DNA from: Eledone cirrhosa
Lineage: Eukaryota
DNA length: 64,000 nucleotides
Assembly (NCBI GenBank): GCA_964016885.1
Contig: OZ024745.1
Location: 51,088,001 to 51,152,000 of the forward strand
Direction of reading: 5' to 3'
Shown here: piece by piece, positions 1 through 60,040 of the stretch
Layout: each line of letters begins with the position of its first letter
How positions within the stretch are numbered: position 1 is the stretch's first letter
Position numbers and translations under genes: made by a program
The notes under the pieces: generated by a model
The model's input: only the letters and a program-made list of their open reading frames with translations
Told to the model about the DNA's origin: nothing
The model's database searches: none

Positions 1-1607
1 ATATATATATATATATATAAGTAATATATATATATATATATATATATAAGTGTATATATATATATATATATTTATATATAAGTATATATATATATATATA
101 TAAGTATATATATATAAGTATATATAGATAAGTATATATAGATAAGTATATATATATATATATATATATATATATAAGTATATATATATATATATATATA
201 TATATATATATATAAGTATATATATATATATATATATATATATATATATATAAGTATATATATATAAGTATATATATATAAGTATATATATATATAAGTA
301 TATATATATATAAGTATATATATATAAGTATATATATAAGTATATATATATATATATATATAAGTATATATAAGTATATATATAAGTATATATATATATA
401 TATATATATATATATATATATAAGTATATATAATATATATATATATATATAAGTATATATATATATATATATATATATATAAGTATATATATATATATAT
501 ATATAAGTATATATATATATATAAGTATATATATATATATATATATATATATAAGTATATATATATATATATATATAAGTATATATATATATATATATAT
601 ATATATAAGTATATATATATATATATATATATATATATATATATATTATATATATATATATATATATATATATATAAGTGTATATATATATATATATATA
701 TATATATATATAAGTGTATATATATATATATATATATATAAGTATATATATATATATATATATATATAAGTATATATGTATATATATATATATATATATA
801 TATATATAAGTATATATATATATATATATATATATAAGTATATATATGTATATATAAGTATATATATAAGTATATATATATATAAGTATATATATATATA
901 TATATATATAAGTATATATATATATATATATATATATAAGTATATATATATAAGTATATATAGATAAGTATATATAGATAAGTATATATAGATAAGTATA
1001 TATATATATATAAGTATATATACATATATATATATATATATATATATATAAGTATATATATATATATATATATATATAAGTATATATAATATATATAAGT
1101 ATATATATATATATATATATATATATATATATATAAGTATATATATATATATATATAAGTATATATATATATATATATATATATATAAGTATATATATAT
1201 ATATATATAAGTATATATATATATATAAGTATATATATATATATATATATATATATATATAAGTATATATATATATATATATATATAAGTATATATATAT
1301 ATATATATATATATATAAGTATATATATATATATATATATATATATATATATATATATATATATATATATATATAAGTGTATATATATATATATATATAT
1401 ATATAATATATATATATATAAGTGTATATATATATATATATATATATATAAGTATATATATATATATATATTAGAAAGTGAGGTTTTTTTTTACAAAATG
1501 AAAAATAACCGAGGTGTCCTACACGAGTGGAAGTATAAAGAAAAAGGGATGAAATCGAAAATGCAACTGAAGTCTTATTTTTTTTAAATATATATATTTA
1601 TTTGGTT

Positions 1608-1645
1608 CCTTTACCGGTTTCGCAGTTCTTCTGCTTTTCAAAAGG
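1608..1645 (-). ncRNA. Minimal hammerhead motif (U3:A8), mirror copy
   Basis: Reverse complement of 1698-1735. Confidence 0.75.
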
Positions 1646-1697
1646 TGAGTTGAGATGGAGGGTCTGTGAAAAACCACAGACCCTCCATCTCAACTCA

Positions 1698-57400: not shown

Positions 57401-57854
57401 ATTGCCGAAGGCCTTTTGCATGGAGATGAATGTGTATGTCGGAAGAATTGGGCATTGTTTGCGACTGGAAATTGAGCAAAGAATATGAGAAAGAAGTAAC
57501 CTATGTTTCCATCATTCCAATCAAAACACAGTGTGGAAATAGTTACAAATAATAAAGTTAATAGGACTCTAGAACTATCCGGAAATTAAAAATCTACATA
57601 ATCATTAAAGGTAACATTTGTACCAGAGACTGGTCATTAAAACATATAGTGATCATCCACATCCTTATATCAGAAATGTAAGAAATAAAATGCAGTGGAG
57701 CTAAAATCTTCCTAAAAAAAAACGAGTCACAGATGGAAATCATATGACCATGACTGCTTGATCAAGGTTGACAAGGGGATAAACAACAACAACAACAACG
57801 GCAGCAACTTCTACTACTACTTGGCGTTGTATATATATATATATATATATATAT

Positions 57855-60040
57855 CCACGGCCTAAACAACTTCCTAGATATTCGGCTTAAACCTTTCCTA
57901 AAACACATAAAATGCTTCATAAGGGACGACCTTGACATGCTCAACCACCTCCCAACAACACTCAATAATGAACATACCCTACTAATAACCTTTGATGTCA
58001 TCAATCTATATTCCAATAACCCACACAACCTAGGTATAGAGGCAATACAATTCTGGCTTGAAAATTTCCCTAGTGAACTCCGACAGCGCATCCCTAAAGA
58101 ATTTGTGTTGGAGGGACTCAAATTCATCTTGGAAAACAACTTCTTTGAATTCGATGCCAAATACTACAGACAGAAATCTGGGACTGCCATGGGCACGAAA
58201 GTAGCCCCCTCATACGCCAACCTTGTCATGGGATATTTGGAAACCACTCTCTACCGCAAAGTTCTAGACAAATACGGTAACCACTTCTATTTACATATAG
58301 AAAAAAACTGGAAGAGCTATCTGGACGACTGCTTCATCCTCTGGCATGAAAGTATAGAAAGACTGATTGAGTTTAAAACATTTCTAAATGGACTCAACAC
58401 AAACTTACAATTTACAATGGATTACAGCCATGAACAACTCCATTTCCTCGACATCCTCATCAAGAAAACAAGCAACAAAATAGAAACAGACATATACTAC
58501 AAACCCACAGACTCCAAACAATATCTTCCATTTAACTCGTGCCACTCTCGCCATACCAAAATGGCAATTCCTTATAACCTAGCCATAAGGATCTGCACAA
58601 TAGTTTCAGATAAAAAACACATGCTACACACGTCGAGAATATTTAAAGAACACACTTATCAGCAGAAACGACCCACCATCCCTAATCAACAATGGATTCC
58701 AACGTGCCCTAAAACTCAACATCCAGGAACTCAGACACCCCAAACCCAGGAATGAACCGCAACAGAAAACTCTACCATACATCTCCACACACAACCTCCT
58801 CAACAATGAGGCATTCGACACCATCCTCCAGAACATTCCTTTACTATAAAGAGACCCAAGAATGAACAAAATCCTCCAAACACACAACATCATAAAGAGC
58901 AAAAGAAAACCTAAATCCATAAAAAAACATCCTCACACAAGCCAAAATCCAACCAACCCTCACAATGAACCATACAGTAAAAAAATGCGGAAGGCCCAAT
59001 TGTGGTATATGCATAAATCTAACAGAAGGTTCAACATTCCATTTTAAACAAGGACAACATTTCACAGCTAAACACAACTTTACATGTGCATCTGAAAACC
59101 TAATCTATGTTTTGACCTGCTCAGGTTGTCAAGAGCACTACATAGGACAGACAAAAACAGCCTCCGACAACGTATGACCGTCCATAGATCACAAATCAAA
59201 ATGCAGGAATACAGGAAGATTGCTTTTAGTGAACATATCGCCAATTGTATACCTAACCAATATCCAAACTTTAAAATTTTCCCCATTTACAAATTCATAG
59301 ACAACGCTTCTTTCATCCATCGTACCAATACGGAAACGTACTTCATTAACAAATTCCAACCTCTATTTAATGGACTAAACTTCGGACTAATCTAAAACTG
59401 GAACGAACAATGAACCAAAACCAAATTCCTATGTTCTCTAAAGAGTTACCTCCCTCACACCCTACCAAATCCTTTTTCTTATATAGATGAATTACCCCCT
59501 CTCATTTCTCTCTCTCCTACCTGACCACCCTGAATTACCTCCCCCTGCATATTAACTCTCTAAAAAGGGAAATCATATCAAACCCCATACTACCATTTGC
59601 CTCCATCATGGATCAACTAAGCACTCTTGCCAAAATAACACATTTTGAACTGCTTATCTTCAAGAACTATGCCTGTAAATAACATTATTTTTTCTTTCCC
59701 ATTACCTTATCATGTTCCACATTACCCCCTTTTTTTCTTTTTTCTTTTCACTTCAAAAACCTTGTTTGTAAATAACATTATTCTTTGTTCCCCATTTCCT
59801 TAACAACATTTTACACCAATACAAATTCCCCCCTTTGATAATGCATAACATGCTGAAAATATATAAATAAATAAATAAATGCCATTGTTAATTAATAAAT
59901 AAATTAACTAATACCTTAACACTTCACACAAAATAAAATATTTTGTTTCAAACATATTCTAACCCAGAAAAAAGAGAAAAAAGTAAAAAGTAAAAAAAAA
60001 ACTTTCTTCATAATAATCGTCTTTTCTCTCCCTATTTTCA
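57855..60040 (+). pseudogene. 5'-truncated, frameshifted Neptune-like PLE with 3' UTR
   Basis: TFDVINLY, GTAMGTKVAPSYANL, YLDD, FLDI, YYKPTD, CGRPNCGIC, FTCASENLIYVLTC..C...YIGQT, RQRM..H, E..FI.KFQP. Starts directly after (TA)n at 57830-57854. Confidence 0.88.

What the first reader, a model, noticed from the sequence alone, without database searches (positions are those of the whole stretch)
1471..59860. Hammerhead ribozyme variants at the ends of at least eight (TA)n-targeted PLE families
Seen: nearly every element end has stem I-core-stem II-GAAA-loop III-UH topology. Canonical cores: 44129 (CTGAGGA) and 50947 (CTGAAGA). Non-standard: TTGAAAA (family C), TTGAAAA plus GCAA (E), CAGAAGA (D x5 and 51288), TTGATAA (59835), a 116-nt stem II (A), and a near-absent stem I (B). 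A U.U closure of stem II recurs in three unrelated families with complete motifs. Known: PLEs carry minimal HHRs with palindromic loop III that act as dimers. Inference: most of these variants would escape CUGANGA/GAAA descriptor searches and may be an under-described set of natural core variants.
Basis: partly seen in the sequence, partly recalled or inferred. Interest (0 to 1): 0.85.

Follow-up and report, generated by a model that had tools for sequence, protein, structure and literature searches.

The report
Hammerhead position-4 variants in Penelope retroelements
Jumping genes in this animal genome end in small hammerhead self-cutting RNA motifs, a known pairing, but several families have fixed a changed letter in the normally invariant catalytic core or grown a 75-116-base arm, so tens of thousands of copies escape standard searches and likely cut slowly, if at all.

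Summary
The motifs are real type I hammerheads at the ends of Penelope-like elements (PLEs): 4 canonical cores against 0.07 in shuffles. Much of the list is already published: U3-A8 (families C, H), the U·U stem II closure and the extra base after A9. Two items are single-copy damage: the 51288 core (family canonical, 22 of 25) and the 59835 copy (21-nt deletion). Three are family states I did not find in print: U4A in D (44,009 copies; 227 non-A), A13C in E (6,422; 98 of 100) and the 116-nt stem II of A (z -5.5). Outside the window, position 4 is also changed in two more lineages of the same Hydra-type PLE clade (J: C in 90 of 100; K: A 54, C 30, U 15), while G5, A6 and A9 hold and one stem II pair covaries in J. 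Stem II inserts of 75-105 nt recur in four more families. Best reading: slow, weakly selected ribozymes that tolerate loss of U4; U4A and A13C may be dead. Cleavage was not testable. The scan noted PLE hammerheads and a C4 variant before on other DNA.

The parts
1698..1735 (+). Family C hammerhead, U3-A8, position 3 at 1702, H17 at 1731 (right arm of a short inverted insertion)
   Evidence: 6,569 genome matches, 96 of first 100 intact
1608..1645 (-). Family C hammerhead, left arm
6401..6438 (+). Family C hammerhead, second insertion
6311..6348 (-). Family C hammerhead, second insertion, left arm
13065..13219 (-). Family A hammerhead, canonical core, 116-nt stem II, position 3 at 13209, H17 at 13075
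   Evidence: stems I-III in the lowest-energy fold, z -5.46; 416 matches; 23 of 25 loci with this core and length
16341..18833 (-). Family A open reading frame, 830 aa, Hydra-type PLE motifs
19126..19280 (-). Family A hammerhead of the upstream, 5'-truncated tandem unit
27116..27154 (+). Family B hammerhead, canonical core, extra base after A9, stem I only 2 bp; position 3 at 27118
   Evidence: 12,213 matches; 25 of 25 loci canonical with 2-bp or weaker stem I
27320..30970 (+). Family B open reading frame (RT plus C-terminal endonuclease region)
31241..31278 (+). Family B hammerhead, downstream repeat
34235..34285 (-). Family D hammerhead, U4A, U·U closure, 5-bp stem III
35777..35827 (+). Family D hammerhead, position 3 at 35782, H17 at 35822
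36345..36381 (-). Family E hammerhead, U3-A8 plus A13C, left arm
36456..36492 (+). Family E hammerhead, U3-A8 plus A13C, position 3 at 36459
   Evidence: 6,422 matches; C13 in 98 of first 100
38588..38639 (+). Family D 3' half only (5' core box absent)
43493..43543 (-). Family D hammerhead, fifth copy (approximate limits)
43955..44004 (+). Family D hammerhead
44129..44166 (-). Family G hammerhead, canonical core, U·U closure
   Evidence: U4 and U·U in 19 of 19 relatives
44441..46389 (-). Family G reading frame, broken into pieces
50382..50432 (+). Family D hammerhead
50947..50985 (-). Family F hammerhead, canonical core, U·U closure; its reading frame was not found
   Evidence: (6 independent places)
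51087..51125 (+). Family F hammerhead, right arm, one stem II mismatch (approximate limits)
51285..51325 (+). Copy of a B-related family; A at position 4 is specific to this copy
   Evidence: 25,710 matches; 22 of 25 canonical, none with A4
57826..58755 (+). Family H reading-frame fragment (RT)
59834..59859 (+). Family H hammerhead remnant: U3-A8 and U·U closure are family states; this copy lost 21 nt with loop III and the cleavage site; family stem I is 1 bp

Best explanation
The motifs are type I hammerhead RNAs in the 3' repeats of Penelope-like retrotransposons, several families carry fixed changes in the core, and they likely act as slow, weakly selected self-cleaving switches that tolerate loss of the U-turn base U4. 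Shown: location at PLE ends, family-level U3-A8 (C, E, H), U4A (D), U4C (J), U/C/A at 4 (K), A13C (E), stem II of 75-116 nt in five Hydra-type families. Inferred: transcripts of tandem copies pair their palindromic loops III (A, C, E, F, G, J, K) or fold a true stem III (D), and cleave after H17 at a low rate, probably helped by the element's protein as shown for a lizard PLE. Because insertion uses mostly uncut RNA, selection keeps the junction and the catalytic G8 and G12 but lets activity sag. My odds of measurable cleavage: canonical and U3-A8 families 0.85, long stem II (A) 0.75, U4C 0.7, U4A 0.4, A13C 0.2.
For: Position 4 is changed in three separately supported clades of one PLE group (tree of 29 endonuclease regions: J 100/99, K 100/99, D apart with sister 88/91). 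With the 5' box left free in the query, the first 100 genome rows (hand counts) give J: C 90, U 8, A 1, G 1 at position 4, against G5 99, A6 97, G8 91, A9 95 (779 matches); K: A 54, C 30, U 15, G 1, against G5 95, A6 95, A9 98, 3:8 paired 87, six of them as U-A (113 matches). On a tree of 33 K flanks position 4 changes 8 times, free position 7 ten times, positions 5, 6, 9 one, none, none. In J one stem II pair is A-U in 20 and G-C in 11 of 34 distinct rows, and stems I and III switch to wobble pairs. An A4 subfamily of K has a doubly changed, still palindromic loop III (6 of 33 rows). C and E differ by paired changes in stems I and II (by eye). An unbiased one-deviation scan of 1.0-1.3 Mb of loci found only 4A, 4C and 13C in more than two places (shuffles 1-2 hits). 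A natural U4C viroid variant lowers activity in vitro but suffices in vivo (PMC3088659, Discussion passage). A PLE hammerhead needs the element's protein to cleave and its catalytic mutants still insert in vitro (PMC11167929, passages).
Against: No cleavage data. All single mutants of the U-turn box had low activity in a mutational scan of another hammerhead (PMC9901934, passage). From memory, not read: the viroid study found U4A and U4G inactive. The predicted lowest-energy folds of D and E are not the hammerhead (z 0.16 and 0.14). B (2-bp stem I, 12,213 copies) and H (1-bp stem I) spread with poor stems, which shows how weak selection is. Lineage changes are few (about 4 at position 4 and 1 at 13; chance of such clustering 0.005 to 0.04 by a crude model), and K was found by a search aimed at position 4. 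C4-G5 is a CpG, which can inflate changes at 4 in J and K. The K flank tree has long branches and partly unrelated flanks. The J covariation is one inherited change, and pair 10.1-11.1 is unpaired in 16 of 34 rows. No copy starts at the predicted cut site in any family, canonical or variant (0 of 64 within 3 nt; 0 of 30 D copies). The genome survey of position 5 was swamped by one satellite and that of position 13 was not run.
Confidence: 0.55

Rival explanations
1. Dead relics that hitchhike: D, E and the A4 branch of K lost catalysis recently in their master lineages and still spread, because hammerhead cleavage is not needed for insertion. Only U4C is a working variant.
For: Catalytic mutants insert normally in vitro (PMC11167929). 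D and E misfold in silico. D copies are young (mean 4.9% from the window copy), so one lethal change need not yet be followed by others. No insertion starts at a cut site. Naiad PLEs thrive without canonical hammerheads (PMC8557442, passages).
Against: A4 arose in both D and K, next to C4 in J and K, while no other 5' box position was found fixed in a family. The A4 subfamily of K kept a palindromic loop III through a double change.
Confidence: 0.33
2. The fold is kept for a job other than cutting, such as binding the PLE protein or setting the start of reverse transcription 25-200 nt downstream; bases needed only for chemistry drift.
For: Motifs sit at fixed short distances from element ends. 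Stems and palindromes persist in variant families. Many short inverted insertions break just 5' of the core in A and D.
Against: The catalytic G8 and G12 and the 3:8 pair are the best kept features, with compensatory U3-A8 in several families; a binding role does not predict that. In the lizard PLE, RNA truncated past the start of the motif region still supported insertion (PMC11167929).
Confidence: 0.1
3. The variant motifs are chance matches or copy-specific decay.
For: True for 51288, for the broken 59835 copy, for 6 of 20 relaxed hits in the window, and for a 102-copy match that lies in what reads as LINE coding sequence.
Against: D: 227 non-A copies, split about evenly among U, C, G (34, 29, 37 of 100 by hand), against 22,909 and 44,009 family matches. 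E 98 of 100, C 100 of 100 U3-A8, A 23 of 25.
Confidence: 0.02

Closest known systems
Minimal hammerheads of metazoan PLEs (Cervera and De la Pena 2014, PMC4209133; parts 1-2 of 4 of the text and parts 1-2 of 3 of the supplement read)
   Same: Type I, in the PLE repeats, palindromic loop III for dimers, extra base after A9 (B and the 51288 family), U3-A8 families, many truncated and inverted copies.
   Different: The representative rows of Figure S3 that I saw all have U4 and short stems II. Here U4A, U4C and A13C are family states, and stem II reaches 75-116 nt.
Hammerheads of Hydra-clade PLEs (Craig et al. 2021, PMC8557442; section 11, passages, Files S1-S2 read)
   Same: A and D carry RW(K/R), DKT and CxCx5C, J and K carry CxCx5C, and they insert in (TA)n. 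U·U closure is in 14 of 26 published rows; several published motifs have a 4-bp stem III like D.
   Different: All 26 published Hydra rows have U4 and short loops II. The longest loop II in File S2 is about 35 nt, in spike-moss PLE-X elements.
Natural hammerhead core variants (Perreault et al. 2011, PMC3088659; sections 8, 9 and passages read)
   Same: U3-A8, U10.1·U11.1 and a natural U4C (viroid; slower in vitro, enough in vivo) are described.
   Different: 'U4A' has no occurrence in the text. There variants are rare single cases; here they are fixed in families of 100 to 44,000 copies. Figures 5, S6, S7 could not be seen.
PAc hammerhead of an Anolis PLE (Frangieh et al. 2024, PMC11167929; part 1 of 4 and passages read)
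   Same: Motif shortly upstream of the element end and tail; no reads or insertions ending at the cut site.
   Different: PAc has a canonical core; cleavage and protein help were shown there and are untested here.
Small PLE-associated hammerhead variants of Lunse, Weinberg and Breaker 2017 (not held; title only)
   Same: By title, PLE-linked variants that cleave as dimers.
   Different: Could not be read; it may already list some of these core variants.

Membership tests
Type I hammerhead ribozyme (Perreault 2011 consensus) | Three stems around the core, ends in stem I | tested here: met
   A, C, D, F, G, J, K. Weak in B (2 bp), E (3 A-U pairs) and H (1 bp).
Type I hammerhead ribozyme (Perreault 2011 consensus) | Core C3 U4 G5 A6 N7 G8 A9 / G12 A13 A14 A15.1 / U16.1 H17, or the compensated U3-A8, in A, B, 51288 family, C, F, G, H | tested here: met
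Type I hammerhead ribozyme (Perreault 2011 consensus) | The same core in D, E, J, K | tested here: not met
   D U4A; E A13C; J U4C; K mostly A4 or C4. They are filed as variants, not as consensus members.
Type I hammerhead ribozyme (Perreault 2011 consensus) | Stem covariation | tested here: inconclusive
   One double-changed pair in J, 11 of 34 rows, 0 of 500 shuffles but relatedness not controlled; C vs E by eye; D, E, A copies too alike.
Type I hammerhead ribozyme (Perreault 2011 consensus) | Site-specific self-cleavage after H17 | not testable with these tools
   Needs an assay.
PLE minimal hammerhead (Cervera 2014) | Lies in the terminal repeat of a PLE | tested here: met
   Reading frames upstream or between two motifs for A, B, 51288 family, C, D, E, G, H, J, K; not found for F.
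PLE minimal hammerhead (Cervera 2014) | Short palindromic stem-loop III | tested here: inconclusive
   Full self-duplex in A, C, E, F, G; poor in B and 51288 family; D has a 5-bp stem III instead.
PLE minimal hammerhead (Cervera 2014) | Extra base after A9 and G10.1-C11.1 | tested here: not met
   Both only in B and the 51288 family; C and E have G-C without the extra base; D, F, G, H have U·U; A has C·A.
Hydra-clade PLE (Craig 2021) | RWK-like motif, DKT, CxCx5C linker, C-terminal endonuclease, (TA)n targets | tested here: met
   A and D all motifs; J and K the linker, J also DKT; insertions end in (TA)n.
Hydra-clade PLE (Craig 2021) | Absence of CCHH and grouping with reference Hydra proteins in a tree | not tested
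   No reference proteins were placed in my trees.
Neptune or Nematis PLE | GxKF, DKG and Cx2-5CxxC linker (C, E; H by similarity; B has the linker with DKS) | tested here: inconclusive
   Motifs present in C and E, RVT_1 and GIY-YIG hits; the two clades were not told apart.

The most novel reading that the evidence does not exclude
U4 of the hammerhead U-turn is dispensable inside the PLE ribonucleoprotein: A4 and C4 cores, and cores split by 100-nt arms, are working ribozymes that arose repeatedly in Hydra-clade PLEs. One A4 family alone adds about 44,000 hammerheads to this genome, and similar hidden families would explain PLEs that are reported to lack the motif.
Probability: 0.3. Interest if true: 0.75.

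Novelty: new variant of a known kind. Interest (0 to 1): 0.52.

Why it matters
Why PLEs keep a hammerhead is open: it is almost universal, yet catalytic mutants still insert in vitro. This genome offers a natural series on one scaffold (U4, C4, A4 in family K; A13 in C against C13 in its sister E; 13- to 116-nt stem II) with copy numbers as a read-out, so the link between cleavage rate and transposition success becomes testable. For ribozyme searches, D (44,009 copies by a downstream anchor) is of the same order as all canonical matches with one common loop III shape (62,137, control 341) and is invisible to canonical descriptors, as are the long-arm forms. Either outcome is informative: activity widens the hammerhead consensus; no activity shows that very successful PLE families do without cleavage.

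Tried and rejected
Rfam scan: only hairpin-type matches among the 150 rows listed of 252. DNA search with D found nothing because common words are skipped; patterns were used instead. Sequencing runs: no RNA holder listed, so 5' ends in RNA were not examined. Contigs of three runs laid on L217: no other letter is listed at D position 4 in organism B (4 contigs cover it, one well inside) or at E position 13 in organism C (1 contig); too thin to count as conservation. 5' breakpoints at the cut site: none in 64 bystander copies of 8 families, nearest +4, none in 30 D copies; canonical families show none either, so the test does not separate active from dead. A 102-copy A4-like match was rejected: flanks read as LINE coding sequence, no stems. 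Another recurrent match is part of the D 3' UTR on the other strand. Position-4 survey with one loop III shape: 1,282 non-U against 62,137 U, mostly decayed canonical copies plus K. Position-5 survey: 79 of 100 rows from one satellite, uninformative. Position-6 survey: no recurrent family with a stem II in 100 rows. Position-13 survey: not run, open. Idea that D is non-autonomous or has a canonical parent subfamily: rejected (L132 has repeat-frame-repeat). Idea that D and J are sisters: not supported. Two labels in the tree (window G row, L258) point to a neighbouring element's motif and were ignored. Long-arm motifs of L109, L148 and L175 do not fold better than shuffles (z -0.3, -0.4, -1.0) and L148 and L175 do not give the hammerhead as lowest-energy fold; each rests on one copy. 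Literature searches with no hit for these variants: hammerhead with U4A or A13C, with the C4 box and uridine turn, with long, extended or elongated stem II, with Nematis/Neptune, with cephalopod or octopus, a guess at the host group that I did not test; U4C only in PMC3088659. Not held: Lunse 2017, Ambros and Flores 1998, Hammann 2012. Figures and the bioRxiv supplements could not be seen and may list such variants.
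Full report
Setting. The window is G000:C5:51088001-51152000 of a 3.0-Gb animal assembly, 27% G+C, a field of (TA)n into which many elements have inserted. Reading frames with RT and endonuclease features lie at 16341-18833 (A), 27320-30970 (B), 44441-46389 (G, broken) and 57826-58755 (H). Short inverted insertions (C, D, E, F) are the 3' ends of other families.

Observation. A descriptor with stems found 4 canonical cores (A twice, F, G) against 0.07 in 30 shuffles, 9 against 0.5 with 3:8 covariation, and 20 against 4.2 when relaxed, 6 of these not family motifs. 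B and the 51288 copy were read by eye. D has five complete copies and one 3' half.

Family state or decay. Genome-wide pattern counts with the core left free settle this. C: 6,569 matches, U3-A8 in all of the first 100, 96 fully intact. E: 6,422 matches, C13 in 98 of 100. D: 22,909 matches on a 26-nt pattern and 44,009 on a 20-nt anchor behind the cut site; only 227 copies have a base other than A at position 4, split 34 U, 29 C, 37 G in the first 100 by hand; 27 of 27 aligned copies from the anchor loci have A4. A: 416 near-identical matches, 23 of 25 loci with canonical core and a 116-nt stem II; the lowest-energy fold has stems I, II and III, z -5.46. B: 12,213 matches, 25 of 25 loci canonical with a stem I of 2 bp or less. 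G: U4 and U·U in 19 of 19. H: U3-A8 in 24 of 24, stem I 1 bp, and the window copy has a private 21-nt deletion. The 51288 family: 25,710 matches, 22 of 25 loci canonical, none A4.

Which elements. D, C and E are autonomous PLE families: L132 holds D repeat, frame, repeat; L122 and L129 hold the same for E and C, with an extra upstream frame. A and D carry RW(K/R), DKT and CxCx5C, the marks of the Hydra clade (PMC8557442 section 11). C and E carry GxKF, DKG and Cx2-5CxxC; C, E and H are related by protein (59-77% to H) and C and E by their 3' ends. No reference proteins were placed in a tree, so clade names rest on motifs.

Beyond the window. A scan of all fetched loci allowing any one core change (0.99 Mb; 1.28 Mb, shuffles 1-2 hits against 55 distinct motifs) showed only 4A, 4C and 13C in more than two places. 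The 4C hit is family J: 1,740 matches, C4 in 29 of 30 loci, and 3,842 more for sister subfamilies, C4 in 91 of 100; one copy lies 4.1 kb past the window end (L305). With the whole 5' box free: C4 90, G5 99, A6 97, G8 91, A9 95 of 100 (hand count). In 34 distinct J rows 88% of cells pair, one stem II pair is A-U in 20 and G-C in 11, and the first pair of stem II is open in 16. A search aimed at position 4 found family K: with the box free, A 54, C 30, U 15, G 1 at position 4 against G5 95, A6 95, A9 98 (hand count; 132 matches). D, J and K are separate clades in trees of RT and endonuclease regions whose base is unresolved. In the same clade, canonical or U3-A8 cores enclose stem II regions of 105 nt (L001, 81% protein identity to A, z -3.33), 83 nt (L109), 90 nt (L148), 75 nt (L175) and 36 nt (14 places); of the four long ones only L001 folds better than its shuffles, and each is one copy.

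How it likely works. Known: PLE hammerheads are minimal and slow and pair their loops III as dimers (PMC4209133); in a lizard PLE the motif cleaves only with the element's protein, and catalytic mutants still insert (PMC11167929). Shown here: full self-duplexes for loop III of A, C, E, F, G and a 5-bp stem III in D; element ends lie about 20-210 nt behind H17, so inserted copies come from RNA that is uncut or rejoined there; no copy starts at the cut. Inferred: selection on cleavage is real but weak. It keeps G8, G12 and the 3:8 pair over long times, allows weak stems (B, H) and long arms (A), and has let position 4 change about four times. U4C has a precedent as slow but sufficient (PMC3088659). 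U4A and A13C have no precedent in what I could search, single mutants of this box were poor in a scan of another hammerhead (PMC9901934), and D and E misfold in silico, so these two may be dead. I recall, from no call, that the viroid study found U4A inactive. A crude model gives 0.005-0.04 for the clustering at one of ten positions, weakened by the aimed search for K, by CpG at C4-G5, and by the unfinished surveys of positions 5 and 13.

Comparison with print. U3-A8 and U10.1·U11.1 are in PMC3088659; U3-A8 PLE families and the extra base after A9 in PMC4209133; U·U closure in 14 of 26 Hydra rows of File S2 of PMC8557442, all 26 with U4 and short loops II. That paper also notes half-cores 35-50 nt apart in Naiads, a hint of long arms. 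Lunse 2017 could not be read. Earlier notes of this scan on other genomes report PLE hammerheads, the U-A pair, a C4 variant in phage-borne motifs and an enlarged stem II in a phage; I did not test them. There were no notes on this genome.

Verdict. Real and largely of a known kind. The part worth pursuing is the repeated loss of U4 in Hydra-type PLEs, fixed in up to 44,000 copies, together with A13C and the long arms. New variant of a known kind; interest 0.52.

Noticed in passing
L257-L286, L399-L428 (family J): The first two to four bases after A9 are far more variable among copies than their surroundings (positions 10.1 and 10.2 take all four bases), often opening the base of stem II. Cause unknown; hairpin-linked mutation is one guess.
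   Followed up: partly
L142-L166 and L001-L030: Many short insertions of A (about 10 of 25 loci) and D (about 10 of 30) have their 5' inversion or truncation point within 10 nt upstream of the core, at a small inverted repeat.
   Followed up: partly
L122:5706-7071 (-), L124, L129: Families E and C have a separate upstream frame of 330-455 aa before the RT-endonuclease frame; the E frame has no Pfam match.
   Followed up: no
G000:C1:1239858-1244283, 5388707-5392669, 5738327-5750934: Tandem arrays of 310-, 311- and 466-nt units, each with a canonical hammerhead, some in inverted pairs like PLE insertions: retrozyme-like repeats, part of 62,137 matches.
   Followed up: no
window 31666-31876 and 38438-38528: 3' ends of a further family, cut 5' of the hammerhead's second box; a longer copy (L258) suggests a U3-A8 core with a long stem II, and its protein is the nearest relative of D.
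   Followed up: partly
L001:422-1560: An A-related element whose 3' end runs directly into a D 3' end: a nested or chimeric insertion.
   Followed up: no
window 12875-16340: Family A has a 3.1-kb 3' UTR full of (CA)n/(TA)n-like sequence that is copied with the element.
   Followed up: no
window 34376-34694: The D 3' UTR holds a diverged internal duplication of about 120 nt (79% identity).
   Followed up: no
rows, L066, L191, L210: Further U3-A8 families, one close to H with an A-U closure of stem II.
   Followed up: no
window 1-12875: Very long imperfect (TA)n with repeated blocks and two runs of N; part may be assembly artefact.
   Followed up: no
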